Below, piece after piece: positions 12,119 through 43,538 of a stretch of 64,000 nucleotides of DNA. Each line of letters starts with the position of its first letter. The stretch's first letter is position 1. Both the position numbers and the translations under genes were made by a program. The notes below the pieces were generated by a model. The model saw only the letters and a list, made by a program, of their open reading frames with translations. It made no database searches and had not been told where the DNA came from. Source of the stretch: an uncultured Candidatus Saccharibacteria bacterium (GTDB taxonomy: Bacteria; Patescibacteriota; Minisyncoccia; Phycocordibacterales; UBA918); assembly GCA_964643955.1 (NCBI GenBank), contig CAZXUO010000001.1, positions 171,828-235,827 of the forward strand, given 5' to 3'.

Positions 12119-12205
12119 TAACTATGGGGATAACACTGTGGAAAACCACGGGATATTTCTGTGAATTATCGAAAAATATGATGCTTTTCAACCCTGCTAT
12201 ACTTT

Positions 12206-13015
12206 GTGTACATGAAAATTATCTCGCTTAATACGTGGGGTGGCAGGGGCGGAAAAGAAGGACTCCTCGACTTCTTTAAACATCATCGAGAAGATACTGA
12301 CGTATTTTGTCTGCAAGAAATATGGTCCGCTCCATATAAAGATCATGAGGGTCAGTATGCTGGCGGACGACCGATTGAGCATGCTGAGATACTCATAAAT
12401 GGTGTTCGTGATATTTCAGAAATTCTTTCCGATCACACACCTTTCTTTCACCCTCACTACCTCGACAACTACGGCCTTATGATGCTCGTCAAAAAGGAAT
12501 ACACGATTCGCGAGAGCGGTGACGTATTTGTGTACCACGAGCGCGGCTATATTCCCACGGGAGACGTCGGCAATCATGCGCGCAACATCCAGTATGCCAC
12601 CTGCACCGTGGATGGAAATGACATCACGTTCATCAATTTTCATGGTCTGTGGACCGACAAAGAAGAGGGTCGCGGGAAGCAAGACATTCCCGAGCGTATC
12701 AAACAATCTGAGAACATTCTCGCTTTTACTCGTACACTCAAAAATCCTTTCATACTCTGTGGTGACTTTAATCTCCTTCCGACCACCGAAAGCATCAAAA
12801 AAATTGAAGAAGCGGGTCTAAGAAATCTCATTAAGGAATACAACGTAAGCTCAACGCGCACGAGCCATTACACTAAGCCAGAAAAATTTGCAGACTACGC
12901 ATTTGTTTCTCATGGACTCACCGTCAACGATTTCAAGGTCTTGCCGGATGTTGTCTCAGATCACTCACCGCTCTTCATAGACATCGAATTTCCCAAAGCA
13001 ACTTCCCTTGCGTGA
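12206..13015 (+). CDS. Endonuclease/exonuclease/phosphatase (EEP) family protein
   Basis: Motifs ISLNTWGG, FCLQEI, CGDFN and SDHSPL. Confidence 0.6.
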   Translation: MYMKIISLNTWGGRGGKEGLLDFFKHHREDTDVFCLQEIWSAPYKDHEGQYAGGRPIEHAEILINGVRDISEILSDHTPFFHPHYLDNYGLMMLVKKEYTIRESGDVFVYHERGYIPTGDVGNHARNIQYATCTVDGNDITFINFHGLWTDKEEGRGKQDIPERIKQSENILAFTRTLKNPFILCGDFNLLPTTESIKKIEEAGLRNLIKEYNVSSTRTSHYTKPEKFADYAFVSHGLTVNDFKVLPDVVSDHSPLFIDIEFPKATSLA

Positions 13016-13027
13016 TAGAATCGCAGC

Positions 13028-13831
13028 ATGGCATATATTTTCTTTATTCTCCTTTTCGCGCTTTCATATGCGACAGCAACGCCCGGAGATGCGCCATACG
13101 AAGCACCTCGAGAGGAATCCCGAGAGACCGCTTCACAATCTCACCAAGAAGTATCCGTTAACCCAGTTCGTGAAGAACGTGAGGAGGCACCAGTCCCCAC
13201 TGGAGAGGTGTACGCGGTCATCCGCGCAATCGACGGCGACACCATCGAAGTACTCATCAACGGCGAGAAAAAGACGATTCGGTACATTGGCATCAACACA
13301 CCCGAGACCGTACATCCTTCAAAGCCTGCGGAATGTTTTGGAAAAGAAGCATCTGATAGAAATAAGGCGCTCGTTGAAGGGAAAGCTGTCAGACTTGAAA
13401 AAGATGTAAGCGAAACCGACAAGTACGGCCGGCTTTTGCGGTACGTGTATGTCGGCGACATGATGATAAATGAAGCGCTCGTTGAAGGAGGATACGCATT
13501 TGTCTCTACCTATCCACCAGATGTCGCACACACCGAAACATTTCGTGCAGCTGAAGTACGTGCGCGAGAAGCAGCACGCGGGCTATGGGGTGATACTTGT
13601 ATAGACACAACAACATCGAGCGCGCCGGTAAGCGCGCCCGCTTCAGAAGCAACACCTTCTGGTCAATGTACGATCAAAGGAAATATCAATGCCGAAGATG
13701 AAAAAATCTACCACGTCATCGGATGCCAGTCATACACAAAAACAGTGATCGACGAGAGTACCGGAGAGCAATGGTTTTGTACTGAAAAAGAAGCACTCGA
13801 CGCCGGTTGGCGCAAAGCACTTAATTGTTGA
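13028..13831 (+). CDS. Secreted thermonuclease (SNase-like) with a Cys-containing C-terminal domain
   Basis: Signal peptide. SNase core: IDGDTIEV...RYIGINTPE...YGRLLRYV. The C-terminus reads CTIKGNIN...IYHVIGCQSY...FCTEKEA..AGWR. Confidence 0.7.
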   Translation: MAYIFFILLFALSYATATPGDAPYEAPREESRETASQSHQEVSVNPVREEREEAPVPTGEVYAVIRAIDGDTIEVLINGEKKTIRYIGINTPETVHPSKPAECFGKEASDRNKALVEGKAVRLEKDVSETDKYGRLLRYVYVGDMMINEALVEGGYAFVSTYPPDVAHTETFRAAEVRAREAARGLWGDTCIDTTTSSAPVSAPASEATPSGQCTIKGNINAEDEKIYHVIGCQSYTKTVIDESTGEQWFCTEKEALDAGWRKALNC

Positions 13832-14218
13832 TTGACAAGATATAGGCGCTACTCTAATCTACTCCTGTTCTTTACGTTTATCAAAGAGGAGGCCAGTGTG
13901 ACCAAACACCATCCCTTCCATGAATCTCTCGTCATGGGAATTCACAACCTGAGACAGGAGCTGCCTCGCGATGTCGAGGAAGCACGCGTCTACAAGAAGC
14001 TTCTGGGGTGCACCGCGATTCCGCCTGAACAATTTCGCGTCGTTCGCACTGCACTGGACGACAAGATCAGGGAGCTCAACACCGACGGTGGATCGTTCGC
14101 AACATCAATGCGGATCGAGTTGGTCGGTGCTCGGGACGCGCTCGAGCTACAGATCGGAGAACACAGAATTCGCTACTCCGCTAGCGATCTTTCATGGAAG
14201 GGTCGTGCTGTATCCTAA
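13832..14218 (+). CDS. Hypothetical protein
   Basis: ORF only. A GTG near 13898 preceded by AAGAGGAGG is an alternative start. A hairpin follows the stop. Confidence 0.3.
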   Translation: MTRYRRYSNLLLFFTFIKEEASVTKHHPFHESLVMGIHNLRQELPRDVEEARVYKKLLGCTAIPPEQFRVVRTALDDKIRELNTDGGSFATSMRIELVGARDALELQIGEHRIRYSASDLSWKGRAVS

Positions 14219-14276
14219 GCTTTTCATTTGATGAACGCAGGCCGTCTCGGAACCACTTTTCCGGGGCGGCCTTTGC

Positions 14277-14996
14277 TTATTCACCTCTCATTTCTTCCAT
14301 CTCCAAAATCTCGTGGATTGAACTATTGCGATGAATGATCTCATCATTTCGTACCATACAGAAAAACTCATACTGATTGCGCGGATAGCGACCATACCAT
14401 TCAAGAAACTCACTACTCACCCGTCGATCCTTTAATTTTTCTTCATGCAACTTGAGAAACTCGCTGTATGAATCAAAGGCATGCTGTTCAAAGATATAAT
14501 TAAGCTCAAACGAATAGCGCGGATTGATGAAGTAAAGGATATACGACCACCAGAAATAAAAGAATGCGAAGAGGAGCGGGATGAAAGTGTGTCGAATGAA
14601 GCCTGCCTTCCCTGCTTCTTTCGCAAGATGCGAGATCACGACGACGTGCATGGTCTCATTGTCTTTTGCAAGTCGTGCAAATCGAGAAAGGTTTGAGAGA
14701 TCAATCGCTTTCTCTTCTTTTGTATAGAAAAACGTAAGGAGCGTAAACATCGCCGACTCCCATGAGTGATATGGGACACGCGCGATCACCTCAATAGCGC
14801 GGAATTTCAGATACGTGGGCGCGTGTCCATACACCACATTCCCTGCAGATACCAAAAACTTCCCGAGCATTCGAGGAACAAACGAAATGTGGTAATTGTC
14901 GTATGGCTCTTTGTATGCACGAAGCGCCTCATCGTCACAGAGCGCAGCCGCAAGCTCTTCAAACGCATCCTGATCTCGTCGATGTTCCATACGCAA
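14277..14996 (-). CDS. Alternative-oxidase-like di-iron carboxylate protein (AOX/PTOX family)
   Basis: Four AOX-like motifs appear in order: AIEVIARVP (compare LETVAGVP), DNETMHVV (compare NERMHL), FEQHAFDSY (compare LEEEA.HSY) and RNDEIIHRN (compare RADEAHHRD). Together they give the 2x(E...ExxH) iron ligand pattern. Confidence 0.55.
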   Translation of the reverse strand: MRMEHRRDQDAFEELAAALCDDEALRAYKEPYDNYHISFVPRMLGKFLVSAGNVVYGHAPTYLKFRAIEVIARVPYHSWESAMFTLLTFFYTKEEKAIDLSNLSRFARLAKDNETMHVVVISHLAKEAGKAGFIRHTFIPLLFAFFYFWWSYILYFINPRYSFELNYIFEQHAFDSYSEFLKLHEEKLKDRRVSSEFLEWYGRYPRNQYEFFCMVRNDEIIHRNSSIHEILEMEEMRGE

Positions 14997-15002
14997 AAGA
15001 GA

Positions 15003-15443
15003 CTACGCAGCAGATACTGCGCCACGAGCAGCGTGTACTTTACGCAAATAGATGTGCCCCAAATACGTACCAATAATAAAGACTGGAAGTCCGACGACAC
15101 TAAAGAGATAGTGGTGGCCGATCATGAGATTGTTCATGATGCCAAGGAGCGACAAAATAATACCTACCACAAACGAAAGTCGGTACGCGTGCTCTCGCGC
15201 AAGATATGTGGTTACGCATCCCGCTTTAAATGACCCAAACGCCCATCCCAAAAGAACGAGGATGTACGCAGTCCACGGGAGTGAATTGGTAAACGCCACC
15301 ACTGCATCTCGATCCATCACGTCGAGTCCTTCGGGAATTGGATATAGAAATGAATTTGCGTACTCAAAAACCATCATCACGATAAACGCTGTCAAAAGCC
15401 CGGCTACCACCGGCCACACCTTCCCCGTAAGAAAATTTCTCAT
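15003..15443 (-). CDS. Hypothetical multi-pass membrane protein, co-oriented with the AOX-like gene and ending 7 bp upstream of it
   Basis: Four predicted TM helices. No family recognised. Confidence 0.4.
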   Translation of the reverse strand: MRNFLTGKVWPVVAGLLTAFIVMMVFEYANSFLYPIPEGLDVMDRDAVVAFTNSLPWTAYILVLLGWAFGSFKAGCVTTYLAREHAYRLSFVVGIILSLLGIMNNLMIGHHYLFSVVGLPVFIIGTYLGHIYLRKVHAARGAVSAA

Positions 15444-15479
15444 AGCTTTATGATAGCACTTCAAAAGGATACTTTTACC

Positions 15480-15845
15480 TTAAAATTCTGTATATTTTGC
15501 GTTACTACCTTTTGCTTTCTCAATAGGATATTTCTTAGCACTTTTTTCAAGCTTCTTTTCAAATGACTGTGGGAGATTGATCTCCAAATCATGAGCCATA
15601 AGCAATACCCAGTACAAAACATCAGCAAGTTCATCGGCGATATCCTCTCGATGTGTACCAATATGTGCCTGCATCTCCACTTCGGACTTAAACAAAAAGT
15701 GCTCCATAACCTCGGCAGCTTCGAGAGCTAAACCTATAGAAGAGTCTTTTGGGTTATGAAATTTTTTCCAGTCTCTTTCCTCTCTAAACTTCAAAACCAT
15801 CTGTAATAAATCATCGAGTGTTTTGTGTTCTTTTGGTGTACCCAT
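15480..15845 (-). CDS. MazG-like nucleotide pyrophosphohydrolase
   Basis: EAAEVMEHF...EDIADELADVLYWVL motifs. Confidence 0.7.
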   Translation of the reverse strand: MGTPKEHKTLDDLLQMVLKFREERDWKKFHNPKDSSIGLALEAAEVMEHFLFKSEVEMQAHIGTHREDIADELADVLYWVLLMAHDLEINLPQSFEKKLEKSAKKYPIEKAKGSNAKYTEF

Positions 15846-15859
15846 ATCTTATTTTTATG

Positions 15860-15946
15860 CGGAGGAGGAGGGATTTGAACCCTCGATACGGTTTCCCGTA
15901 TGCCGGTTTTCGAAACCGGTGCCTTCAACCACTCAGCCACTCCTCC
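15860..15946 (-). tRNA. tRNA-Ser (anticodon CGA) with a long variable arm
   Basis: Acceptor GGAGGAG/CTCCTCC. D-arm GCTGAGTGGTTGAAGGC. Anticodon loop TTCGAAA. T-loop TTCAAAT. Confidence 0.8.
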
Positions 15947-16259: not shown

Positions 16260-16265
16260 CATGAG

Positions 16266-16300
16266 ACAAACAGACACTCCCTGCGGAGTGTCTGTTTGCG
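16266..16300 (+). terminator. Strong terminator hairpin (acaaacagacactcc ctgc ggagtgtctgtttg)
   Basis: 14-bp perfect stem. Confidence 0.7.
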
Positions 16301-16425
16301 TATGTGAAGGCGGAGCCATGTCGCTTCGCGACAGGCGAGCCGAGATCGACAAGTACTTAGTTAAAATCTGCCGGAGGACTGATTTTACTTAGTAACTTGT
16401 GACCACAAGGACAGCTGGAGAAAGC

Positions 16426-16443
16426 TTTTGTTATAATCAATCC
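16426..16443 (+). promoter_or_regulatory. Extended -10 promoter (TGtTATAAT) directly abutting the ATG at 16444, implying a leaderless transcript
   Basis: TATAAT at 16432-16437 with TGn immediately upstream. There are 6 nt between the -10 element and the start codon. Confidence 0.45.
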
Positions 16444-16974
16444 ATGAACTTTGAAAACCCCTCGGAAAGCATCCGTTTCCCAAAAATTGCACAGGAGCTA
16501 CAAGAGATGGTGACTGTTGATCAAGACATGCGCAAGCGCAGTCTTACTGAAGACTACTGGGACGAAACTGTTGATGCGAGGAACACCGAGCGGATGAAAG
16601 AAATAATCGCAGAGATTGGGTGGCCAACAGCATCAAAAGTCGGACCGCAAGGAGTAAGTGATGCATGGCTCTTAGTGCAGCACGCTGACCATGATGTCGA
16701 TTTTCAGGAACGATGTTTAGAATTGATGAAAAAAGCACCTGCGGGTGAGATCGATATGATTGATGTTGCCTACCTGACAGACCGAATACGTGTAAATCAA
16801 GGCAAAGGACAATTATACGGTACGCAATTCACGCAGGAAGACGGAAAGCACATCCCGCGGACAATCGAAGATGAAGCAAACATAGACGCGCGAAGGGCTG
16901 AAATGGGGATGGGTCCTTTATCGGAACAAGTACAGCTCATGTACGATCGGTACCCATTTGAGAAAGAGGTATGA
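16444..16974 (+). CDS. Hypothetical protein (176 aa)
   Basis: ORF with a leaderless-type start. The upstream ATG at 16399 is an alternative. No family recognised. Confidence 0.4.
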   Translation: MNFENPSESIRFPKIAQELQEMVTVDQDMRKRSLTEDYWDETVDARNTERMKEIIAEIGWPTASKVGPQGVSDAWLLVQHADHDVDFQERCLELMKKAPAGEIDMIDVAYLTDRIRVNQGKGQLYGTQFTQEDGKHIPRTIEDEANIDARRAEMGMGPLSEQVQLMYDRYPFEKEV

Positions 16975-17031
16975 TCCGTCGCTACGTGAGCCGCGAAACC
17001 AAATGGGCGTCTCCGTAGTTTCTATCGGTGT

Positions 17032-17586
17032 ATGCTAAAAAATAACTTTGTTCGAATCGCCATCGGAACGGTGCTTTTATTACTTATTCCCCTCGTACTC
17101 ACTCTCACCGGCAGCGGTGTAGACGGGATCGGCTGGCACTGGACCCTCATGGACTTTGTTTTTATGTTCGTGCTCATTTTCGGCACCGGATCGCTCTTTG
17201 AGCTTGCACGGACGCACTACACGGGAAACAGCACCTACACCATCGCCGCCGGCCTCGCGCTCGCAGACACCTTCCTACTCGTGTGGATCAATGCCGCAGT
17301 CGGCATCATTGGTGACAGTGACATTAATGCTCTCTATTGGCTTGTCGTAATTACGCTTTTTCTCGGAGGCGCTGCATCGCGCTTCAAGCCACAAGGCCTC
17401 TCCCTAACCCTCTTCGCTGCAGCGGGGGTACAAATGCTCATTCCCGTCATCGCATTCATCATCAACCAACCCGATTTCTCACCGGGAGTTGTACACGTAT
17501 TCATGATCAATGCGACCTTTGCTGCAGTCTTCATTGCGTCAGGACTTCTCTTTCGAGCACGTGCACAGGCACCGAAGATCGCATAG
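17032..17586 (+). CDS. Hypothetical integral membrane protein
   Basis: 5-6 hydrophobic helices. Confidence 0.4.
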   Translation: MLKNNFVRIAIGTVLLLLIPLVLTLTGSGVDGIGWHWTLMDFVFMFVLIFGTGSLFELARTHYTGNSTYTIAAGLALADTFLLVWINAAVGIIGDSDINALYWLVVITLFLGGAASRFKPQGLSLTLFAAAGVQMLIPVIAFIINQPDFSPGVVHVFMINATFAAVFIASGLLFRARAQAPKIA

Positions 17587-17631
17587 CAAATAGAATGTCG
17601 GCTCCACACCGATGCGCTACACTAGGGAGGT

Positions 17632-24974: not shown

Positions 24975-25127
24975 ACCACAAAACTTTACGAGTATTGAAT
25001 AATGTGCTATAGTCACTCTCGTAAGAAAGCTCTGGTCACTGAACGACTCCAGCGTTGTTAAGCCTCACAAGCCCTAAACCCTGGAGTGCTTTTTTTTGTA
25101 AAAAAAGAAGAATTAAATAATTACAAT

Positions 25128-26339
25128 ATGAAGAAGTACACCCGCATACTCACCATACTTGTTGCAATCATAATATTTGTAGGAATAGTATTTTCTGCAT
25201 GGCTTTTCGTGTTCAAAGACGAGCGAAACTACTCATCGATATTTCTCAACACATACCGAGCTGCAGTAATTGACTCAATCTGGGTAGCGTATCGAGAAAC
25301 CATTCAGGAAGATGGGCGTACGATCGATCGTGGGCGAAATTACCTCACCACATCAGAAGGACAATCATATTCACTGCTTCGATCTGTCTGGATGGATGAC
25401 CGAGATACATTTGAACAGGTGTTAAAATGGACAAAGCATAATCTTCAAAAACGCGAAGAAGACCAACTTTTTGCTTGGCTGTGGGGACAGCAATCAAATG
25501 GTCGATGGGATATCATCACCGAAGAAGGCGGACGAAACAGTGCTTCAGATGCTGATCAAGATATTGCGCTCGCACTTATTTTCGCAGCTGTACGCTGGAA
25601 TGATAGTTACTATCTTGATGAGGCAAACGAAATTCTTGATGACATATGGCGACAGGAAGTTGTCCATATAGGAAATCGTCCGTATCTTGTTGCGGGTAAC
25701 TGGGCACGCGATGAGATTCGCCCAACGATAAATCCATCATATCTTTCTCCAGCATGGTATGAGATTTTTGCGCGCGTAGACACCGAGCATGACTGGCTCG
25801 CAGTCAAGGATACTTCGTATGAGGTATTAAACCGCGCTACATGGAATGAACTCGATCGCGGAACCGCAGTTGGACTTCCTCCTGACTGGGTCTCGATCGA
25901 TCGAACGACAGGCGCCATTGTCCCATCGATGCATGCAGACAAAACGACTAATTTCTCTGACGACGCATTTCGTACTTTTTGGCGAGTCGGCCTCGACTGG
26001 GAATGGCATCAAGATGAGCGCGCATACGAATATCTCAACCGCATAACATTTCTTAAGGATGAATGGGAAAAACGAGGACTTGTGTACGGAACATATGGTC
26101 ATGACGGCTCGCTCACAAAAACCGAGGAGAGCAGCTCTCTCTACGGAGTTTTACTTGCATATTTCTCAATCGTAGATAAGGAAATAGCACAAGAAATATA
26201 CGATAAAAAAATAGCAGAGTACTACGACACCGATACGGAGAATCTAAAAGACTATCTTGGATACTACCCACAAAACTGGGTATGGTTCGGCATGGCCTTT
26301 TACAATGACCGACTCCCCAACTTAGCGGATCCTGATTAA
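25128..26339 (+). CDS. Glycoside hydrolase family 8 (BcsZ-like endoglucanase), membrane-anchored
   Basis: TTSEGQSYSL and ASDADQDIALAL (GH8 catalytic region), with an N-terminal TM anchor. Confidence 0.65.
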   Translation: MKKYTRILTILVAIIIFVGIVFSAWLFVFKDERNYSSIFLNTYRAAVIDSIWVAYRETIQEDGRTIDRGRNYLTTSEGQSYSLLRSVWMDDRDTFEQVLKWTKHNLQKREEDQLFAWLWGQQSNGRWDIITEEGGRNSASDADQDIALALIFAAVRWNDSYYLDEANEILDDIWRQEVVHIGNRPYLVAGNWARDEIRPTINPSYLSPAWYEIFARVDTEHDWLAVKDTSYEVLNRATWNELDRGTAVGLPPDWVSIDRTTGAIVPSMHADKTTNFSDDAFRTFWRVGLDWEWHQDERAYEYLNRITFLKDEWEKRGLVYGTYGHDGSLTKTEESSSLYGVLLAYFSIVDKEIAQEIYDKKIAEYYDTDTENLKDYLGYYPQNWVWFGMAFYNDRLPNLADPD

Positions 26340-26347
26340 ACATACGT

Positions 26348-27940
26348 ATGGACGATTCGCGAACGACAAACATGTACTACATAAGCGCACAGGTGCCGCG
26401 AGTTCTTATACTTATCGCTGCTGCACTTTCGCTCTGGTACCTTACCTGGTGGTTTGACTTTTCTCGCGCGGGATCGATTACGTTGTTTGTACTCCTCTTT
26501 ATTGGTGAAATCTACCATGTATGGCAATCACTCGGTTTCCTCCATACCGTTTGGGATATGAAGAAAGTCGAACACAAAGTGAGCGTTACGAATCCTCTCG
26601 TCGATATTTTCATTACCGTCTGTGGTGAACCAGTTGATATTGTCGAGCAGACCGTACGTGGCGCACTTGCCATTAACTACCCAAATTTTACCGTTCACAT
26701 TCTTAACGATGGAAAAGTTGCTCGGAAAGAAAATTGGGAGGAAATTATCACGCTCGGAAAATCACTCGGGGTCAACGTTATTACACGCGAGATCCCTGGC
26801 GGTGCGAAAGCCGGAAATATCAACCACGCACTCAAGCTAACGTCAGCGCCATTTTTTGCGCTATTTGATGCTGACCACGTACCACACCCTGAGTTTCTTG
26901 AGCGCACCATGGGCCACCTTGAGGACCCAAAAATGGCTATCGTCCAATCGCCTCAATATTATATAAACAAGGGTGAAAATTTCTTGACGCGTGCGTCATG
27001 GGAACAGCAAGAACTTTTCTTTGGACCAATCTGTATTGGAAAGAATCGTCATAACGCTACCTTTTGGTGTGGCACCAATGCAGTCGTTCGTCGCACAGCC
27101 ATCGAAAGTATCGGAGGCGTTCCTGAGGACAATATTGCTGAAGATTTCTGCGCTTCGCTTTTCATTCATCAACGCGGATGGAAAACGCTTTTTATACCCG
27201 AGATCCTTGCAAAAGGCCTTGGTCCAACGGATCTAAAATCATTCTTCAATCAGCAATTCCGCTGGGCACGCGGATCTTTGGAGCTTGTATTTCGCTATAA
27301 CCCATTCTTTCGCAAAGGACTTACGTTTGCTCAGCGTTCACAATATCTCTACTCTGCCGGCTACTACCTAAGCGGCCTAATCATTTTGATCGATGCGGTC
27401 GTACCTCTCGTAGTACTTCTTACCGGTATTCGTCCTGTCGAAGACTCAACAGGAAACTTTATCATTTATTTCTTTCCATTCATCTTCATCACGCTCTATG
27501 TACTCATGCGTGCGACAAACTATTCGATAACATTCCGAGCTGTTCAGCTTTCAATGAGCTCGTTCTTCATCTTTATTCTTGCAGCTATCTCAACAATCAC
27601 TGGAAAAAAGTCTGCATTTAAAGTTACTGACAAACGTGCAGCGCAAGGAAACTACCTCATGTACGCACTCCCTAATATTATCTATACCGTTGCTACAGTA
27701 TTGATAATTGCATTTGCCCTATACATGCACGGACCAACTCCGCACGTCATCACAAACGCAGCGTGGGCAATCTTCAACGTTGTATTCTTCTTCCCATTCA
27801 TTGTTGTTGCGTATCCATGGCGAACTGAAGCAAACCACCTTTTGGAAAAAGCGAATCACCGCATAAACAGCACGACATTTGGTAAGTATGTAAATACTCA
27901 CACGATGATAATGCTCAATTCAGTAAAAAAACTATGGTAA
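26348..27940 (+). CDS. Cellulose-synthase-like processive GT2 (BcsA-like) with no recognisable PilZ domain
   Basis: D, DAD (FDADHVP), ED (NIAED) and QQFRWARG (QxxRW) motifs are present. The C-terminus is multi-TM and lacks the RxxxR/DxSxxG PilZ signature. Confidence 0.7.
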   Translation: MDDSRTTNMYYISAQVPRVLILIAAALSLWYLTWWFDFSRAGSITLFVLLFIGEIYHVWQSLGFLHTVWDMKKVEHKVSVTNPLVDIFITVCGEPVDIVEQTVRGALAINYPNFTVHILNDGKVARKENWEEIITLGKSLGVNVITREIPGGAKAGNINHALKLTSAPFFALFDADHVPHPEFLERTMGHLEDPKMAIVQSPQYYINKGENFLTRASWEQQELFFGPICIGKNRHNATFWCGTNAVVRRTAIESIGGVPEDNIAEDFCASLFIHQRGWKTLFIPEILAKGLGPTDLKSFFNQQFRWARGSLELVFRYNPFFRKGLTFAQRSQYLYSAGYYLSGLIILIDAVVPLVVLLTGIRPVEDSTGNFIIYFFPFIFITLYVLMRATNYSITFRAVQLSMSSFFIFILAAISTITGKKSAFKVTDKRAAQGNYLMYALPNIIYTVATVLIIAFALYMHGPTPHVITNAAWAIFNVVFFFPFIVVAYPWRTEANHLLEKANHRINSTTFGKYVNTHTMIMLNSVKKLW

Positions 27941-29676
27941 ACCTTCGTAACAACGCGCATTTCGCTTTTGCTTTTGCGGCCATCATACTCATTGGTATTT
28001 CCGTCCGACTTATCGGCATTTCTACCGAAAGTCTTCGTCTTGATGAGGCACAGAGTATTTGGCAAGCTTCTCATTCGATGGAGTTCATTCGGCAATACAT
28101 GCTGAAGAACGTGCACCTACCCCTCCACAACACACTTCTCCATGTATGGATGCAGTTCTTTGGCACAAGTGAAGCTTCGGTGCGCATGCTCGCGGCAATT
28201 CCAGGGATACTCTTTTTGCCTGCAATCTATCTCCTTGCTCGTGAATTTATGGCTCGACACTGGGCACTTGTTGCAATGACACTTGCCTCGATCGCCCCAA
28301 TCTTCGTTTGGTACAGTCGCGAAATTCGCATGTACTCTTTGCTTATCCTTATTGCTACCCTCTCGTTCTATCTCTATATCCGCATCCTTCGAGAGCCACG
28401 CATGCAATGGTATCTTCTCTACACAGCAGTAAACCTCATCGGCATTTACACACACTATTTCTTTATTTGGACACTTGTTGTTCAGCTCATTTTCTTTTTC
28501 GCAACGTGGAATATCGATTTTACGTCACACATTAAGAAAACGAAACGCCAGATCTTTATTGGACTTTCTGTTGTGGCAGGACTGCTCCTTATTGCATTTA
28601 GTCCGTGGCTTTATGGACTTTTTAGCAGCCACGGCTCCGGTTCGCTTGCTCCTGTCTTTGGTGCACCAAACAGCTTCAACATGGCGCTCACGCTGTTTGA
28701 ATTTCTGTTCGGTTTTCAGCCAGACATAATTACCGGAGGACTCTTTGCGCTCTGGCCACTTATTACGCTCTTTGGGTTTATTTTCCTCGCAAAACGAACT
28801 CCTATACCGCCCCTTGTATGGCTCCTTGTTATCGGTATCTTTCTACCCATAACGCTCACGTTCATCATTAGCGTTACAATCAAGCCGCTTTACCTCACAC
28901 GATATTTGATGATTGCCGCACCACTGGTCTTCGTGTTTATTACGTGGTTTATCAGCGAACTCCCTAAGTATCGAGTATTTTTTACTTTGGCTATTGCCAC
29001 AGTACTTGTATGTACCCTTTACACACAACAGTTCCATCCTGAAAGCCCCGCTAAAGAAAACTACCGCGATGTTGCAACATACATTAACGCAGAAGTCACC
29101 TCACGCGATATTGTTGTTCTTGCGCCTCCCTATCTTATTTACCCGTTCCAATACTATTACACGGGACAAGCTCATACGACGAGTATGCCTATTTGGGATA
29201 AACGCGAAGGCGCAATCCCGGTAATCACACCTGAACTTCTCGCGCGCGACGCCGAAATAATCAAAGGGAGTAGAAAGCGCATATTTCTTATCGTAGGATC
29301 AGATCTTGTTGGTGCAAACGAAGCAAAAGACTACTTTGACAGCAATCTTACAAAGATTGATAAAAAACAGTTTTCCAAAAATCTTTGGCTTCACGTCTAT
29401 CAAGCTGAATACCTCACCGATAATCAGGATGTTGTCACTATCCCGCCACCATCACCGTCATCAACACCTGTGCCCACCTCAGAACACACCACACAAACAC
29501 CTTCTAATTCTGTTTCAAACATCTCTGGAACATATGTTATTCAACAGGGAGACACACTAACTTCAATCTCGAAGAAGATTTATGGAGACTCGAGCAAATA
29601 CCTGTACATTGCTGAATTAAATGGCATAGTAGACCCCAACACCATTATTTTAGGCCGTACTTTGCTGACCCCGTAG
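27934..29676 (+). CDS. GT-C fold membrane glycosyltransferase (PMT_2/ArnT-like) with a C-terminal LysM domain
   Basis: N-terminus RLDEAQSIW...FGTSEASVRMLAAIPG matches the ArnT/PMT_2 signature. At least 10 TM helices. The C-terminus YVIQQGDTLTSISKKIYGD...IAELNGI is a LysM domain. Confidence 0.55.
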   Translation: MVNLRNNAHFAFAFAAIILIGISVRLIGISTESLRLDEAQSIWQASHSMEFIRQYMLKNVHLPLHNTLLHVWMQFFGTSEASVRMLAAIPGILFLPAIYLLAREFMARHWALVAMTLASIAPIFVWYSREIRMYSLLILIATLSFYLYIRILREPRMQWYLLYTAVNLIGIYTHYFFIWTLVVQLIFFFATWNIDFTSHIKKTKRQIFIGLSVVAGLLLIAFSPWLYGLFSSHGSGSLAPVFGAPNSFNMALTLFEFLFGFQPDIITGGLFALWPLITLFGFIFLAKRTPIPPLVWLLVIGIFLPITLTFIISVTIKPLYLTRYLMIAAPLVFVFITWFISELPKYRVFFTLAIATVLVCTLYTQQFHPESPAKENYRDVATYINAEVTSRDIVVLAPPYLIYPFQYYYTGQAHTTSMPIWDKREGAIPVITPELLARDAEIIKGSRKRIFLIVGSDLVGANEAKDYFDSNLTKIDKKQFSKNLWLHVYQAEYLTDNQDVVTIPPPSPSSTPVPTSEHTTQTPSNSVSNISGTYVIQQGDTLTSISKKIYGDSSKYLYIAELNGIVDPNTIILGRTLLTP

Positions 29677-29709
29677 AGACTACTTCGTTGCAGTGGTACC
29701 ATTGTCCGG

Positions 29710-31302
29710 ATGAGGAATACTCTTCTCTTTCTTGGACTTATATTCATTGGAACAATTTTTTATGCAGCACATACGTATGCGAATACTCAAAATGATCTAG
29801 GTGCGCTCTACAATGAATGGAAGGAAGAATTTGTCACGCATGAAGGTGCAGGTGGCCATGCGCGCGTACTTCAAAACAAGGATCGTCAAACCACCGTATC
29901 AGAAGGACAGGGATACGGAATGCTTCTTGCAATTTACAACAATGATCCAGAAACATTTGATAAGTTGTGGAAGTATACGAAACAGTACCTCAACGATCGC
30001 GGACTCATGCACTGGCAAATTGACAAGACGGGTGCTGTCATCGGCAGAAACGGTGCAACTGACGGCGATGAGGATATAGCCTTCGCATTACTCGCAGCAT
30101 ACAAACAATGGGGTATGTACGAGGAGGATGCTCGTGCCTATATCGATGCGATTTTTACTCACGAAGTTGAAGCGGAGACATACGTACTTAAGCCGGGTGA
30201 TGTATGGGGCGGCTCTCGCATTACAAATCCGTCATATTGTGCTCCTGCATATTACCGTGAATTCGCAGAATTTACCGGTGAGGAAAACTGGCTTCGTGTA
30301 CTCGACACTTGCTATTCAATTATTAAAAAAGCACGCAATATCAATACAGGTTTGTTACCTGAATGGACAACCATTGACGGCGGCATCGCGTACGATCTTA
30401 CACATAACAAGAATCGCGATAATTTTTCTTACAATGCAATTCGAGTACCTTGGCGTATCTCAGTTGATTGGGTATGGAACCGCGATCCCCGAGCATACTC
30501 AATCAACGACCGCATGACCAACTTTTTCGACAATGAACGAAAATTATATAGCGGGTACACGCTCTCAGGAAAACCAATTGTTATATACTTTGATGCAACG
30601 TTCGCTGCAGGAATTGCTGCAGGATCACTTGCTTCAGATAATACTAAGTTCAGGGAGGAGATGACCGAACGATTGATACAAACAACATCAAATAGCTACT
30701 ATGGTGCGACACTACGCTTGCTGTCACTCATGCTTGTCATGGAGAAATTTCCAAATCTTGCAATCGCGCCTGAAGCACCTCCTGAAAATGAGGAGGAGCA
30801 CAGCACGACTACACCTGAAGTAATCCCATCAGCTCCGCAAGAGCAAGAAATTATTCCCGATTCAGATTCTGTAGAAACAGAACCCATCCCCCAAGAAGAC
30901 CTTGCCGGAGAGGAAGCGAACGTCGGTTCGACAACTCCCGAGATACTCCCTCCTGAAGAACTAGAGGTACCTGAAATTGAGACATCCGTCATCGTTGAAC
31001 CTGAAGAAAATCATACGATAATAATCGACAGTCCTGAAGATAGCGCTACACTTTCTGGAGAGAAGAAGATTAAGGCATATATTGAGAATCTATCACTCGA
31101 CAGCTATACAATGATTTATTCTGTTGATGACAAAATGGAAGACCACATGCATGACGCCGCGGGAATGTTTAAGCAGGCAAAAATCCAATTCGATTCATGG
31201 ACATGGAATGAGAGCGGCCCCTACCGTGTCGACATCACTGCATATGATCTTTCAGGAAATACTCTTGCTACGACTCACATAGAAATCTACGTAAAACACT
31301 AG
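29710..31302 (+). CDS. Second GH8 glycoside hydrolase with an acidic linker and a C-terminal Ig-like domain
   Basis: TVSEGQGYGM and ATDGDEDIAFAL motifs. The C-terminal linker is Glu/Pro-rich. Confidence 0.65.
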   Translation: MRNTLLFLGLIFIGTIFYAAHTYANTQNDLGALYNEWKEEFVTHEGAGGHARVLQNKDRQTTVSEGQGYGMLLAIYNNDPETFDKLWKYTKQYLNDRGLMHWQIDKTGAVIGRNGATDGDEDIAFALLAAYKQWGMYEEDARAYIDAIFTHEVEAETYVLKPGDVWGGSRITNPSYCAPAYYREFAEFTGEENWLRVLDTCYSIIKKARNINTGLLPEWTTIDGGIAYDLTHNKNRDNFSYNAIRVPWRISVDWVWNRDPRAYSINDRMTNFFDNERKLYSGYTLSGKPIVIYFDATFAAGIAAGSLASDNTKFREEMTERLIQTTSNSYYGATLRLLSLMLVMEKFPNLAIAPEAPPENEEEHSTTTPEVIPSAPQEQEIIPDSDSVETEPIPQEDLAGEEANVGSTTPEILPPEELEVPEIETSVIVEPEENHTIIIDSPEDSATLSGEKKIKAYIENLSLDSYTMIYSVDDKMEDHMHDAAGMFKQAKIQFDSWTWNESGPYRVDITAYDLSGNTLATTHIEIYVKH

Positions 31303-31316
31303 CACTTGTTTTTTGT

Positions 31317-32537
31317 TTACCGCAACTCAACATCTTCCTCGATCTCTTCGTCATCACGTGACGGCATAAAAAGCAAATGTGAAATAAAGAACCAAATGAC
31401 AGAAAGAATTGTGGCAATCAACATCGGGAGGAAAAGACAATCGTACCAGAAGAAATATGAGAGTACCGCAACGACTGCATACCAACCCATATGCCAGTAG
31501 TGGTACGCCGACGGATTCCATGGGCGCATATCATGGTATCGCTCGCGGAAATCGAAGAAGAACCAGCCGATCATAAAGAGAAGTGCGAGGAGCCACCAGT
31601 CGCACAAGAGTAATAACTTATTGAGGAGCACCAGCACCACAACCATGAGTGCGGCAAAAATCGAGTTGCGTGAAAATGCACGGCGAGAGCCATACACTTC
31701 GTTTCGCAATCGCAGATCACGGATGAGAACCCAGCCATAAAAGATACCGAGCACGATGAGAAGTATCGGCATCACGCAGGCACAGTCAACCGAGATAATG
31801 TCAGAAACTCCTGCGACGATTCCGTCTGGCAACGTCGTGCTCCCTGTGCCCGTTGCTTCACCGAGCACCTGCGGCTCACCCGCACCTTCTGCTCCTGCTA
31901 CGCTTCCTGAAGGGACAAGTGGAACTGCAAACGGAAATCCGCCGCCAGTACCGAAGTCTTCAGGAGTTCCCGTGTCACCATCCCCGTCACCATCGCCGTC
32001 CCCGCTTGAGCGCGAACCACCGCCCCCTGTACTACCCCCTCCGTCACCATCCCCATCTCCGTCGCCATCACCACCCGAAGTTTCGCCATCGTCACATTCA
32101 AAATTCCCACCTGCAAACCCTATACAAAGATCAAACGAGAGCGATGCATACTGGTATTCATTTCCCGATTCAGGGAAGAATGTCATGCGATAGGTATAGA
32201 CCGTCGATGCGCCGTTTGAAAGTGTACTGAGCCCTACTTTTCCTGCTGTATCGAAATCGACAAATGATCCCGTGAAAAAATCTCCATTGTTGATGATGAC
32301 TCCCATTGCGTCGCCGAGTCCGTCGTCGTCAACCACATTGATAAGTTCGGTATATACACTCTTATCTTCACCGCTATTATTGGTGACCGTCACCGTCTTT
32401 GTGATGGTATCGCCCGGAAGAAAATTAGACTCACCGAAAAGCGGTACGGTCTCGAACTGCACCTCAAGTGGCGCGGCCTGCACACTGCCCGCAAAAAAGA
32501 AGAGTGAGACTGCGCAGATTGTAAGAAAATATTTCAT
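31317..32537 (-). CDS. Secreted and membrane-anchored protein: signal peptide, beta-rich domain, (GD)n linkers, an EPQVLGE motif and a C-terminal multi-TM domain
   Basis: GDGDGDGDGDGGG and GDGDGDGDGDTG low-complexity linkers. At least 5 C-terminal TM helices. Confidence 0.4.
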   Translation of the reverse strand: MKYFLTICAVSLFFFAGSVQAAPLEVQFETVPLFGESNFLPGDTITKTVTVTNNSGEDKSVYTELINVVDDDGLGDAMGVIINNGDFFTGSFVDFDTAGKVGLSTLSNGASTVYTYRMTFFPESGNEYQYASLSFDLCIGFAGGNFECDDGETSGGDGDGDGDGDGGGSTGGGGSRSSGDGDGDGDGDTGTPEDFGTGGGFPFAVPLVPSGSVAGAEGAGEPQVLGEATGTGSTTLPDGIVAGVSDIISVDCACVMPILLIVLGIFYGWVLIRDLRLRNEVYGSRRAFSRNSIFAALMVVVLVLLNKLLLLCDWWLLALLFMIGWFFFDFRERYHDMRPWNPSAYHYWHMGWYAVVAVLSYFFWYDCLFLPMLIATILSVIWFFISHLLFMPSRDDEEIEEDVELR

Positions 32538-32548
32538 AAATAAAATAA

Positions 32549-34633: not shown

Positions 34634-35186
34634 GCGTATCAGTCTTTTCTGGTTCCTCTTTTGCTTCTTTTTTTGTTCGCAACTTTCTCAATTCATTCCA
34701 GAGTGCGACTCCCTCATCAAAAAGGACAAATCCTGCGGGAATGCCGATGAGTAATACGAAACCGAGCGGCTTCTTAGCAAAATCGAGGATGAATCCCATG
34801 TACGGAATCGAGAAGAAGACTTCTCCAAGTACCTGAGTACGCGGTATCGGCCGCGGATCAGGCGCGTTGTTGGCATCGCCTTTCGTGAGATACGAGATGC
34901 CACGACCGATCTCATCTACCTCGACGATGCGGTGCGTCGTCGGCACCTGATCGCCACGTTCAAAGTAGAAGGTGATGATATCACCCACTTGATAATCACC
35001 CGTTGGTCGCATCACAATGAGCGAGCCCGTCTTGATCTCAGGCTCCATCGAGCCGGACTGCACAATCTTTACTTCGAAGTTGCCTGGTACGGGCACGAGC
35101 GGCATGAGCAGCAGAAGACCAAGGAGAACCACTCCCACGATGAGTCCGTAATAGAGAATTGCGAAGAACTTTCCGATCATAAGCAT
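34626..35186 (-). CDS. sipW: Signal peptidase I, ER/archaeal type (SipW)
   Basis: SGSMEP box, a His-containing TTHRIV box (no Lys general base) and a TKGDANNAPD box. This differs from the P-type lepB at 5921. Confidence 0.75.
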   Translation of the reverse strand: MLMIGKFFAILYYGLIVGVVLLGLLLLMPLVPVPGNFEVKIVQSGSMEPEIKTGSLIVMRPTGDYQVGDIITFYFERGDQVPTTHRIVEVDEIGRGISYLTKGDANNAPDPRPIPRTQVLGEVFFSIPYMGFILDFAKKPLGFVLLIGIPAGFVLFDEGVALWNELRKLRTKKEAKEEPEKTDTHA

Positions 35187-35270
35187 ATCGAGGCTTAAAG
35201 ACTTAAGGCCTCATCCCTCCCCGCGATACTTCGCAGGGAGGGTGAGCCATCAAGACTTTAAAGAATTTCT

Positions 35271-37145: not shown

Positions 37146-37214
37146 AACAGTTTGTAAAATTAATCTTTAAATAAATTTGATAAACCCACGCGCAGCTCTG
37201 GTGCTGAGCTGGTC

Positions 37215-37262
37215 TGGGTATAGAAAAAACGCCCCGCGCACGAATTACGTGCGAGAGGCGTT
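37215..37262. terminator. Long imperfect hairpin terminator (aacgccccgcgcacg aatta cgtgcgagaggcgtt) with A- and T-runs, embedded in a longer imperfect palindrome
   Basis: Located downstream of the sortase gene and upstream of the 624-aa gene. Confidence 0.55.
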
Positions 37263-37389
37263 TTTCCATACATCCAAACCAGACCAGCAGTACTTCAGAG
37301 TCATTATCATAGCTGTGGTAATCGCATACTAGCGCACCGCAACCGAATGTACATATTGACGTGTGGACTAGTTTGTATCGTGCCGCTCT

Positions 37390-38022: not shown

Positions 38023-38027
38023 AAGTC

Positions 38028-39815: not shown

Positions 39816-39891
39816 ACAGAAATATTATAAGTGGTTAACCCAAACGTGACGCCGTTCTAGCATATTTTGGGTTAACCCGCAACACCAAGGA

Positions 39892-41292: not shown

Positions 41293-41339
41293 GAGTACTT
41301 ACGATACCGCACCTGTAGGTATCGTCAACGGAGTAGGTC

Positions 41340-43286: not shown

Positions 43287-43295
43287 TTGGTAATG

Positions 43296-43538
43296 TTATT
43301 GATTTATCTGTAAACCCAGGTCGTGTATGCTCACCTGACGCAACGCACCCTTATATTTCCTGAGATTTATAAAAAATCTGATGAGCATGAGTACTGAGAG
43401 CCCAAACGAGATTATTGTAAAGATTAGAAATATCCGTGCCAAAATGATATTGCCGGAAGAGTTTAGCAAAAAAGCCGTCGCGACCGCGAGCGGCATCGAT
43501 GACAAAGTTGAGATCACTGTCCCTCCGTGCAGATTCAT
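43296..43538 (-). CDS. Small two-TM membrane protein, positioned like IcaD/PgaD
   Basis: 80 aa with two hydrophobic helices, lying between the processive GT2 and the CE4 deacetylase. Confidence 0.35.
   Translation of the reverse strand: MNLHGGTVISTLSSMPLAVATAFLLNSSGNIILARIFLIFTIISFGLSVLMLIRFFINLRKYKGALRQVSIHDLGLQINQ

What the first reader, a model, noticed from the sequence alone, without database searches (positions are those of the whole stretch)
14277..15845. Alternative-oxidase-like di-iron protein with a dedicated membrane partner, next to a MazG-like hydrolase
14277-14996 carries four AOX-family motifs, including ExxH twice, in the correct order. A four-TM protein ends 7 bp upstream, implying translational coupling. 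AOX/PTOX homologs are rare in bacteria and need a quinol substrate. This is surprising in a genome whose other content looks reduced. It may be a quinol- or O2-detoxifying di-iron oxidase, or a different four-helix-bundle hydroxylase.
Basis: partly seen in the sequence, partly recalled or inferred. Interest (0 to 1): 0.6.

Follow-up and report, generated by a model that had tools for sequence, protein, structure and literature searches.

The report
AOX/PTOX-type di-iron oxidase in Patescibacteria
The gene encodes a real but divergent alternative-oxidase/plastid-terminal-oxidase-type di-iron enzyme, conserved across one class of ultra-small, metabolically reduced bacteria that are not known to make quinones; the neighbouring membrane protein and MazG-like gene are chance neighbours, not partners.

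Summary
On the minus strand, 14277-14996 encodes a 237-239 aa protein that passes the Pfam AOX threshold (36.8 bits against 22.7). It carries E...ExxH...E...ExxH in the right order. All six metal ligands, the catalytic Tyr and three second-sphere residues map onto trypanosome AOX. A confident AlphaFold model matches only AOX structures.

It belongs to a tight clade specific to Patescibacteria (Paceibacteria). I found at least 736 proteins and 242 species genomes, with about 64% mean identity. That is as conserved as ribosomal protein L19. The clade is closer to cyanobacterial and cyanophage PTOX and to a large uncharacterised soil-bacterial clade than to mitochondrial AOX.

The "dedicated membrane partner" reading fails. 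The 4-TM gene is adjacent in only 1 of 80 related genomes, and the MazG-like gene is absent even from the 94%-identical relative. No neighbour is conserved.

Most likely this is a non-energy-conserving membrane quinol:O2 oxidoreductase running on scavenged quinone. That would add it to the known puzzle of orphan bo3 and bd quinol oxidases in these bacteria. The substrate is inferred, not shown.

It is a new member of a known kind, of moderate interest. One archaeal contig also carries a CPR-type copy.

The parts
14277..14996 (-). AOX/PTOX-family di-iron carboxylate protein. 239 aa from the TTG at 14996; probable start is the ATG at 14990, giving 237 aa.
   Evidence: PF01786 at 36.8 bits against GA 22.7. 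PHROG PTOX model E=5.8e-9. At least 736 homologues. AF2 model pLDDT 85, pTM 0.85. Top 14 Foldseek hits in the PDB are all trypanosome AOX, probability 1.0, TM about 0.5-0.55.
14769..14807 (-). Motif 1, KFRAIEVIARVPY. E69 is ligand 1 (TAO E123). K64 corresponds to TAO R118.
   Evidence: E69, A72, R73, P75 and Y76 are invariant across CPR, soil-bacterial and PTOX clades. TAO mapping. Coordinates.
14643..14663 (-). Motif 2, DNETMHV. N113 (TAO N161), E114 (E162) and H117 (H165).
   Evidence: Invariant in A1 and A2. Mapping.
14526..14600 (-). Hydrophobic, aromatic-rich helix (residues 133-157, FIRHTFIPLLFAFFYFWWSYILYFI). Probable interfacial membrane anchor, aligned with the hydrophobic stretch IIITQAIMYLFLLVAYVISPRF of TAO.
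   Evidence: It is the only segment with Kyte-Doolittle mean >=1.5. Helix 133-157 in the model. Aligned to the hydrophobic TAO stretch.
14466..14501 (-). Motif 3, NYIFEQHAFDSY. E170 (TAO E213), H172 (E215), A173 (A216) and Y177 (Y220, the catalytic Tyr).
   Evidence: E170, H172, A173 and Y177 are invariant across all clades aligned. Mapping.
14325..14351 (-). Motif 4, RNDEIIHRN. D218 (TAO D265), E219 (E266) and H222 (H269).
   Evidence: Invariant. Mapping.
14239..14272 (.). 14-bp-stem GC-rich hairpin, 5 nt beyond the AOX-like stop codon, between convergent genes. Terminator-like 3' boundary.
   Evidence: This is a consensus scan only.
15003..15464 (-). Patescibacteria-specific 4-TM protein of unknown function (probable start ATG 15443, 146 aa). 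It is adjacent here but is not a conserved partner.
   Evidence: No Pfam or NCBIfam hit. 85 homologues. Model pLDDT 91 with no significant PDB fold match. Adjacent to the AOX-like gene only in the window and L011.
15480..15845 (-). MazG-like nucleotide pyrophosphohydrolase. A strain-variable insertion between tRNA-Ser and the 4-TM gene, not part of the unit.
   Evidence: PF12643 E=1.3e-15. PHROG pyrophosphatase. Absent from the syntenic relative L011 and from all 80 related loci.
15859..15946 (-). tRNA-Ser(CGA), immediately upstream of the MazG-like gene. It marks the conserved edge of the variable insertion.

Best explanation
The gene encodes a membrane-associated di-iron carboxylate oxidase of the AOX/PTOX family.

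Structure. The model has a four-helix bundle. Its helices carry E69, E114-x-x-H117, E170 and E219-x-x-H222, which would bind two irons. Y177 and an N113/Y201/D218 hydrogen-bond shell sit in the same sequence positions as in trypanosome AOX. A very hydrophobic helix (133-157) would anchor the protein in one leaflet of the membrane.

Inferred function. By analogy with AOX and PTOX, the enzyme takes electrons from a membrane quinol and reduces O2 to water without pumping protons. Paceibacteria are reported to lack quinone biosynthesis. The quinone would therefore be scavenged from a host or from the environment, along with lipids. The physiological role would be O2 removal and/or re-oxidation of reducing equivalents, for example through a type-II NADH dehydrogenase where one is present.

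Gene organisation. The gene acts alone. In this organism it may be co-transcribed with the upstream 4-TM and MazG-like genes, but that arrangement is local and recent.

Shown: family membership, ligand and second-sphere conservation, fold, strong purifying selection, mainly vertical inheritance, and the absence of a conserved partner.

Inferred: metal content, quinol substrate, O2 reduction, quinone source and physiological role.

The confidence of 0.6 is for the whole statement: about 0.9 for AOX/PTOX-family di-iron membership and about 0.5 for the quinol:O2 activity and the physiological role.
For: Family and active site:
- Pfam AOX is above threshold and is the only hit. The PHROG PTOX model also hits.
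- Six ligands plus Y177 are invariant in 24 CPR sequences. They are also invariant across CPR, soil-bacterial, cyanobacterial, cyanophage and eukaryote-like PTOX sequences.
- A broad profile hits TAO at E=3.4e-8. The mapping is E69=E123, E114=E162, H117=H165, E170=E213, E219=E266, H222=H269, Y177=Y220, N113=N161, Y201=Y246, D218=D265 and K64=R118.
- The AF2 model has pLDDT 85. The ligands lie on helices 62-72, 113-128, 159-183 and 208-238. Only TAO chains match in the PDB (probability 1.0); ferritins and COQ7 score E>1.

Selection and inheritance:
- Mean pairwise identity is 63.5%, minimum 51.5%. Between the same genome pairs this equals L19 and TrxB and exceeds RuvA, UppS, RuvX and Tmk.
- AOX-like identity tracks L19 identity, rho=0.67.
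- 242 species genomes carry it.

Context:
- Parcubacteria from oxic groundwater carry bo3 or bd quinol oxidases without quinone biosynthesis genes (PMC4508563). Soil CPR show the same pattern (PMC8407418).
- Genome C7867-001 from that study (bd oxidase, no quinone genes) also carries this AOX-like gene (L066).
Against: No quinone biosynthesis gene, quinone reductase or other respiratory gene appears in the 64-kb window. None appears among the polytopic membrane proteins (>=6 predicted TM segments) in about 2 Mb flanking 160 AOX-like loci (10 were scanned with Pfam, the rest classified by eye). The proposed electron donor therefore has no genomic support here.

The family profile alone does not reach TAO by sequence. 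Identity to PTOX is only 25-28%. TAO T219 is replaced by S or Q, and E215 by H. Substrate specificity could therefore differ.

Whole genomes could not be screened.
Confidence: 0.6

Rival explanations
1. The protein has the AOX fold and di-iron site but acts on a non-quinol substrate. Because the host lacks a quinone pool, the enzyme would oxidise or hydroxylate some other lipophilic or soluble reductant, or simply act as an O2/ROS-scavenging di-iron protein.
For: Quinone biosynthesis is reported absent in Parcubacteria (PMC4508563; PMC8407418). No quinone-linked gene lies nearby. The clade is divergent: its profile gives no sequence hit to TAO, and pocket residues differ (T219 to S/Q, E215 to H).
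Against: E215 to H is shared with bona fide PTOX. The counterpart of quinol-contacting R118 is a conserved basic residue (K64). A216 and Y220 are invariant. The hydrophobic membrane helix is kept. Other quinol oxidases (bo3, bd) also occur in these quinone-less genomes, which favours scavenged quinone as a general solution.
Confidence: 0.2
2. MazG-like, 4-TM and AOX-like genes form a dedicated three-gene module. The 4-TM protein would be the membrane dock or electron donor for the oxidase, with translational coupling.
For: The genes are co-directional with short gaps: about 36 nt, then 6-12 nt. The 4-TM/AOX pair is kept in the 94%-identical relative L011. Only a weak hairpin separates the two genes.
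Against: Adjacency occurs in 1 of 80 related genome loci. An HMM of the 4-TM family finds nothing in the other 79. None of 4 loci centred on the 4-TM gene holds an AOX-like gene. The MazG-like gene is absent in L011 and in all 80 loci. Immediate neighbours of the AOX-like gene differ widely from locus to locus; the commonest is a convergent PduO-type gene, adjacent in 13 of 76. The reading frames do not overlap.
Confidence: 0.05
3. It is a different ferritin-like di-iron enzyme (Coq7-, MiaE-, AurF- or R2-type hydroxylase/oxygenase) that the AOX model picks up by chance.
For: All these families share an ExxH-containing four-helix bundle. Identity to any characterised AOX or PTOX is low, at most 28%.
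Against: AOX is the only Pfam family at E<=1, and NCBIfam finds none. Foldseek gives TAO probability 1.0 but COQ7 E=3.3, TM 0.34, with ferritins at TM about 0.3. AOX-specific second-sphere residues and the catalytic Tyr are invariant.
Confidence: 0.03
4. The gene is a bin contaminant or a decaying horizontally acquired gene with no function in these bacteria.
For: A published survey attributed its single CPR AOX hit to transfer from Proteobacteria (PMC9540462).
Against: The gene is embedded among housekeeping genes in contigs up to 831 kb from many independent studies. Conservation matches ribosomal-protein levels, all catalytic residues are invariant, and identity covaries with L19. It forms its own clade, with 100% NJ bootstrap for the core and 91% with divergent members, away from the TAO outgroup. 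tblastn finds only cyanobacterial and cyanophage relatives and no proteobacterial plasmid hits.
Confidence: 0.02

Closest known systems
Plastid/plastoquinol terminal oxidase (PTOX; plant IMMUTANS, cyanobacterial and cyanophage PTOX)
   Same: These are the only annotated relatives that direct search finds: Nostoc and Acaryochloris plasmid genes at 25-28% identity, E about 1e-9 to 1e-10, and cyanophage PTOX. Shared signatures are ARVPY after ligand 1, N-E-x-x-H, E-x-H-A-x-x-x-Y (His where AOX has Glu215), D-E-x-x-H, and a hydrophobic helix before motif 3.
   Different: It forms a separate clade in the NJ tree. It lacks the 15-20-residue insertion that cyanobacterial and plant-type PTOX carry before motif 4 (alignment columns 326-345). 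It has a conserved about 38-residue N-terminal two-helix extension of its own. It occurs in non-photosynthetic bacteria with no plastoquinone pool.
Mitochondrial-type alternative oxidase (Trypanosoma brucei TAO, PDB 3VV9/3VVA; also proteobacterial AOX)
   Same: It is the best and only significant structural match. All six iron ligands, Y220 and N161/Y246/D265 are conserved positionally. The monotopic-type hydrophobic helix is kept.
   Different: No detectable pairwise sequence similarity, and none from the family profile. Identity in the structural alignment is about 15%. The LET / NERMHL / LEEEA / RADEAHH contexts are replaced. The protein is about 230 aa, with no targeting peptide or regulatory Cys region. 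From established knowledge, TAO uses ubiquinol within a full respiratory chain.
Uncharacterised soil-bacterial AOX-like clade ('group B': Acidobacteria, Rokubacteria and others; annotated alternative oxidase / ubiquinol oxidase)
   Same: These give the highest-scoring non-CPR hits to the CPR profile, at about 100-130 bits. Length is the same (about 220-250 aa), the ARVPY and E-D-H-A-E-H-E-Y motifs are shared, and the PTOX insertion is absent.
   Different: 23-29% identity. The signatures differ (QDNEQWHLL, G-x-DER-x-HK). The organisms are larger-genome and presumably respiring. At least 4352 proteins. None has been characterised, so it offers no functional anchor.
Orphan quinol oxidases of CPR bacteria (cytochrome bo3 Cyo operon, cytochrome bd CydAB)
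   Same: The biological puzzle is the same: O2-reducing quinol oxidases in genomes without quinone biosynthesis, seen in oxic groundwater and soil and proposed to serve O2 tolerance (PMC4508563; PMC8407418). One such genome (C7867-001) also carries the AOX-like gene (L066).
   Different: These are unrelated haem enzymes that conserve energy, and they were acquired sporadically by lateral transfer. The AOX-like gene is a single-subunit, non-haem, non-pumping enzyme. It is widespread and looks mostly vertically inherited within Paceibacteria.

Membership tests
AOX/PTOX di-iron oxidase family (Pfam PF01786) | Scores above the curated family HMM threshold | tested here: met
   36.8 bits against gathering score 22.7, E=4.2e-9, covering profile positions 53-210 of 216. 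PF01786 is precomputed for all listed homologues.
AOX/PTOX di-iron oxidase family (Pfam PF01786) | Six metal ligands, four Glu and two His, as E ... ExxH ... E ... ExxH in this order | tested here: met
   E69, E114, H117, E170, E219 and H222 are invariant in A1 and A2. They align one-to-one with TAO E123, E162, H165, E213, E266 and H269.
AOX/PTOX di-iron oxidase family (Pfam PF01786) | Catalytic Tyr (TAO Y220) and second-sphere H-bond residues (TAO N161, Y246, D265) | tested here: met
   Y177, N113 and D218 are invariant across all clades aligned. Y201 is invariant in the CPR clade and aligns with Y246.
AOX/PTOX di-iron oxidase family (Pfam PF01786) | AOX-type helical fold with ligands on four bundle helices, and the ligands converging on a two-metal site | tested here: inconclusive
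   Fold: the AF2 model (pLDDT 85) matches only TAO chains, probability 1.0, TM 0.48-0.55. The ligands lie on four separate long helices.
AOX/PTOX di-iron oxidase family (Pfam PF01786) | Interfacial (monotopic) membrane association through hydrophobic helices | tested here: met
   A single strongly hydrophobic helix at 133-157 (Kyte-Doolittle mean 1.72) aligns with the hydrophobic TAO stretch IIITQAIMYLFLLVAYVISPRF. The topology itself was not tested.
AOX/PTOX di-iron oxidase family (Pfam PF01786) | Quinol:O2 oxidoreductase activity, cyanide-insensitive and SHAM/gallate-sensitive | not testable with these tools
   Needs biochemistry or complementation of an oxidase-deficient E. coli strain.
AOX/PTOX di-iron oxidase family (Pfam PF01786) | A quinone pool and a quinone reductase present in the same organism | tested here: inconclusive
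   None in the 64-kb window. None among the polytopic membrane proteins in about 2 Mb flanking 160 loci. The literature reports no quinone biosynthesis in Parcubacteria. Whole genomes could not be screened.
PTOX subfamily | PTOX sequence signatures: ARVPY after ligand 1, and E-x-H-A...Y in motif 3 | tested here: met
   Shared with cyanobacterial, cyanophage and eukaryote-like PTOX sequences in A2.
PTOX subfamily | PTOX-specific insertion before the fourth motif (the 'exon 8' region of plant PTOX), and grouping inside the PTOX clade | tested here: not met
   The insertion is absent (columns 326-345 of A2). The CPR sequences form their own clade, separate from the PTOX clade, which has 76-99% bootstrap support.
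Mitochondrial/proteobacterial AOX subfamily | Detectable sequence similarity to characterised AOX, with LET / NERMHL / LEEEA / RADEAHH contexts | tested here: not met
   phmmer and the family profile give no hit to TAO at E<=1. Only the ligands and a few second-sphere residues are shared.
Coq7 / MiaE-type di-iron hydroxylases | Better match to these families than to AOX | tested here: not met
   No Pfam hit at E<=1. COQ7 (7sss_E) scores Foldseek E=3.3, TM 0.34.
Operon with a dedicated membrane partner | Conserved adjacency of the 4-TM gene and the AOX-like gene across genomes | tested here: not met
   1 of 80 genome loci. 0 of 4 loci centred on the 4-TM gene.
MazG-like NTP pyrophosphohydrolase (PF12643), gene 15480-15845 | Scores above the family HMM threshold | tested here: met
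   57.9 bits against 27, E=1.3e-15. PHROG pyrophosphatase E=2.3e-13.

The most novel reading that the evidence does not exclude
Paceibacteria, regarded as quinone-less obligate fermenters, carry a vertically inherited, ribosomal-protein-level conserved O2-reducing di-iron oxidase. It would run on host-derived quinol, or on an entirely different reductant. It would then define a third major lineage of the AOX/PTOX family, one that has also reached archaea (one contig). That would extend a family that recent surveys restrict to Proteobacteria, Cyanobacteria and eukaryotes, and would make oxygen handling part of the core biology of these episymbionts.
Probability: 0.25. Interest if true: 0.7.

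Novelty: new member of a known kind. Interest (0 to 1): 0.45.

Why it matters
A 2025 survey of oxygen reductases still places AOX only in Alpha-, Beta- and Gammaproteobacteria and PTOX only in Cyanobacteria. That survey excluded MAGs (PMC7618691). This gene represents a large, tightly conserved lineage outside that picture, in bacteria thought to lack respiration and quinones.

It sharpens an existing open question: what feeds the orphan quinol oxidases of CPR bacteria? It also offers a simple handle on that question. The enzyme is a single subunit of about 230 aa, and an established E. coli complementation assay exists for its family.

If active, it would show that many Paceibacteria consume O2. 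That bears on their ecology in oxic groundwater and soil, and on attempts to cultivate them.

Tried and rejected
- Direct PDB sequence search with the protein, and with the CPR-only profile, gave only spurious GPCR hits on the hydrophobic helix. A broader profile (A2) was needed to reach TAO.
- An exact look-up of the window protein found nothing on record.
- Cluster look-ups for divergent representatives returned no names.
- I searched for a conserved partner: ORF clustering of 80 loci, neighbour tables and a 4-TM HMM. None was found. The commonest neighbour is a convergent PduO-type adenosyltransferase, in 13 of 76 loci. Being convergent, it is not operonic. The rest are housekeeping genes.
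- The 4-TM model has no PDB fold match. PADLOC gives no defence assignment for the three genes.
- A metagenome scan for closer relatives of the archaeal copy returned only CPR-type genes.
- I looked for UbiA/MenA-, CydA- or CyoB-like membrane proteins in the flanks of 160 loci and found none. Only flanks could be searched, not genomes.
- Literature searches for AOX or PTOX in CPR, Patescibacteria, Parcubacteria or DPANN found only a one-line mention.
Full report
**What is there**

On the minus strand, downstream of tRNA-Ser(CGA) (15859-15946), lie three co-directional ORFs:
- a MazG-like gene (15480-15845),
- a 4-TM gene (15003-15464; probable ATG at 15443),
- an AOX-like gene (14277-14996; probable ATG at 14990).

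The 4-TM stop codon lies 6 nt before the TTG and 12 nt before the ATG of the AOX-like gene. A 14-bp-stem hairpin follows the AOX-like stop.

Pfam gives PF01786 (AOX) as the only hit for the 239 aa protein, at 36.8 bits against a threshold of 22.7, E=4.2e-9. It gives PF12643 (MazG-like) for the 121 aa protein and nothing for the 4-TM protein. The PHROG model for plastoquinol terminal oxidase also hits the AOX-like protein, E=5.8e-9.

**The organism**

The window carries housekeeping genes: FtsA, FtsZ, TrxB, tRNA synthetases, LepA, MurJ and RNase P RNA. It also carries a large cell-surface glycan cluster. None of the ORFs scanned is a respiratory or quinone gene. All close homologues of the AOX-like and 4-TM proteins come from Patescibacteria (Paceibacteria, Parcubacteria) MAGs.

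**The protein family**

The word-indexed search finds 736 homologues at E<=1e-3. The best 120 listed are 62-94% identical, and all named ones are CPR (Adlerbacteria, Yonathbacteria, Kaiserbacteria, Paceibacterota, Minisyncoccota). Where they are named at all, PGAP calls them 'alternative oxidase' and JGI calls them 'ubiquinol oxidase'. A pattern-limited scan of one genome per species finds 242 species carrying it.

In 24 diverse members, E69, E114, H117, E170, E219 and H222 are invariant. So are Y177, N113, D218 and Y201.

Between the same pairs of genomes the protein is as conserved as ribosomal protein L19 or TrxB, at about 64-68% identity. It is more conserved than RuvA, UppS, RuvX or Tmk. 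Its divergence covaries with that of L19, rho=0.67. The pairs are not independent and the loci were chosen by similarity, so this is indicative only. It points to strong purifying selection and mainly vertical descent.

**Relation to known enzymes**

Neither the protein nor the CPR-only profile reaches any PDB sequence. tblastn against annotated phages and plasmids finds only two groups:
- cyanophage 'plastoquinol terminal oxidase',
- cyanobacterial plasmid 'alternative oxidase' genes of PTOX type, at 25-28% identity and E down to 3e-10.

No proteobacterial plasmid was hit.

An exhaustive profile search of 1.8 billion representatives gives 490 clusters. There is a tight CPR core, then a large group scoring about 100-130 bits ('group B'), then PTOX-like sequences. 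Group B holds at least 4352 proteins from soil bacteria such as Acidobacteria and Rokubacteria.

In an alignment of all these clades, fifteen positions are invariant: E69, A72, R73, P75, Y76, N113, E114, H117, E170, H172, A173, Y177, D218, E219 and H222.

The profile built from that alignment hits trypanosome AOX at E=3.4e-8. It gives a residue-by-residue mapping of all six ligands. It also maps Y220, N161, Y246, D265 and A216, and places a basic residue (K64) at the position of quinol-contacting R118.

A rough NJ tree puts the CPR sequences in their own clade, with 100% bootstrap for the core and 91% with divergent members. That clade is separate from PTOX and far from the TAO outgroup.

**Structure**

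The AlphaFold model is confident (pLDDT 85.3, pTM 0.85) and all-helical. The ligands lie on four different long helices. Foldseek against the PDB returns 14 TAO chains at probability 1.0 (TM 0.48-0.55). Everything after that, including ferritins and COQ7, scores E>0.8. Coordinates are not exposed, so ligand convergence could not be measured.

The single strongly hydrophobic helix (133-157) aligns with the hydrophobic TAO stretch IIITQAIMYLFLLVAYVISPRF.

**The supposed partner**

The 4-TM protein belongs to a small Patescibacteria-only family of 85 proteins. It has a confident model of four long helices plus one short one, and no PDB fold match.

- In four genomes with long contigs it is not near an AOX-like gene.
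- Among 80 genome loci centred on the AOX-like gene, tblastn and a family HMM find it only in L011, the 94%-identical relative.

Synteny with L011 shows three stretches specific to the window:
- the MazG-like gene,
- 12169-14295, holding an EEP nuclease, a secreted SNase and a 128 aa ORF,
- 16262-17628.

Immediate neighbours of the AOX-like gene differ widely from locus to locus and are mostly housekeeping genes. The commonest is a convergent PduO-type adenosyltransferase, adjacent in 13 of 76 loci. The gene is thus a stand-alone unit, and the three-gene arrangement is a local accident.

**Mechanism**

*Shown.* This is an AOX/PTOX-family protein with an intact di-iron ligand set, the catalytic Tyr, the second-sphere network and a membrane-binding helix, all under strong selection.

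*Inferred from the known chemistry of AOX and PTOX.* The enzyme performs four-electron reduction of O2 to water using electrons from membrane quinol, without proton translocation.

*The gap.* The electron donor is unidentified. Parcubacteria are reported to lack quinone biosynthesis, yet some carry bo3 or bd quinol oxidases (PMC4508563; PMC8407418). One such genome (C7867-001, from oxic groundwater) also carries this gene (L066). No UbiA/MenA-, CydA- or CyoB-like protein appears among the polytopic membrane proteins (>=6 predicted TM segments) in about 2 Mb flanking 160 loci.

The most economical reading is a scavenged quinone serving a minimal, uncoupled chain for O2 removal and/or NAD+ regeneration. 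A non-quinol substrate cannot be excluded.

**Novelty**

Automated pipelines already label the family. I found no paper that analyses it.
- One AOX phylogeny mentions a single CPR hit and ascribes it to transfer from Proteobacteria (PMC9540462).
- A 2025 survey that excluded MAGs limits AOX to Proteobacteria and PTOX to Cyanobacteria (PMC7618691).

This is therefore a new, well-defined member lineage of a known enzyme family in an unexpected host group. It is not a new kind of system.

**Side finding**

A 46%-identical CPR-type copy (P0206) lies on a 14.8-kb contig. One flank carries Dus and an archaeal RNA-polymerase operon (RpoH, split RpoB, RpoA'). The other carries an A/V-type ATPase subunit D gene. 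The contig is archaeal by these markers. A metagenome scan found no closer relatives, so this looks like a rare transfer.

Noticed in passing
L094 7001-7696 (ENA ERZ27301260:k141_793987): A CPR-type AOX-like gene (P0206; 46% identical to the window protein, all ligands present) sits in an archaeal contig. One flank carries Dus and RpoH / split RpoB / RpoA', whose best PDB hits are archaeal RNAP at 610-646 bits. The other flank carries an A/V-type ATPase subunit D gene. A 2025 survey that excluded MAGs lists no archaeal AOX or PTOX. No closer relatives turned up in the metagenome scan, so the case seems rare.
   Followed up: partly
P0220-P0488 (no window coordinates): A very large uncharacterised AOX-like clade, with at least 4352 proteins at E<=1e-10. 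Signature motifs are QDNEQWHLL and FEDHAEHEY. It occurs in soil bacteria such as Acidobacteria and Rokubacteria, outside the published AOX/PTOX distribution.
   Followed up: partly
window 12169-14295, 15463-15853 and 16262-17628: Three stretches are absent from the syntenic 94%-identical relative L011. The first holds an EEP-family nuclease, a secreted staphylococcal-type nuclease (PADLOC 'SNc+LTD' model, E=1e-37) and a 128 aa ORF. The second holds the MazG-like gene next to tRNA-Ser. The third holds a DUF6624 protein and a membrane protein. These are strain-variable islets that flank the AOX-like gene. GC is about 0.46-0.47, against about 0.50-0.53 in the adjacent blocks.
   Followed up: partly
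L015, L024, L027, L028, L050, L053, L056, L057, L064, L070, L073, L084 (downstream of the AOX-like gene): A PduO-type cobalamin adenosyltransferase gene (PF01923) is the commonest immediate neighbour, in 13 of 76 loci. It is usually convergent and often overlaps the AOX-like stop by 4 nt. This may be lineage synteny rather than a functional link.
   Followed up: partly
L122 21-1085 and L034 16455-17552: A DoxX-domain membrane protein (PF07681, weak hits at E about 1.5e-5) occurs in two clusters of two loci each. In L122 it is divergently adjacent to the AOX-like gene, about 190 bp away. In L034 it lies about 6 kb away. The DoxX/DoxD family includes subunits of a thiosulfate:quinone oxidoreductase.
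   Followed up: no
L014 994-1701, L038, L039 (upstream, same strand, gaps 38-41 nt): A 6-TM protein with a CxxP-type motif that looks like CcdA/DsbD (thiol-disulfide electron transfer) directly precedes the AOX-like gene in three loci. The assignment is by eye only.
   Followed up: no
L092 617-3675 (Acaryochloris marina S15 plasmid): The PTOX-type 'alternative oxidase' lies immediately downstream of a nitric-oxide reductase large subunit, with a Crp/Fnr regulator gene upstream. The pairing of an O2 reductase with an NO reductase may be worth a look.
   Followed up: no
window 25086-44846 and 58623-63953: There is a long cell-surface and glycan cluster: two GH8 hydrolases, cellulose-synthase-like GT2s, a PMT_2/LysM protein, a polysaccharide deacetylase, a CBM96+LTD protein and several large secreted proteins with no family match. 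There is also a 1776 aa ORF at the window end.
   Followed up: no
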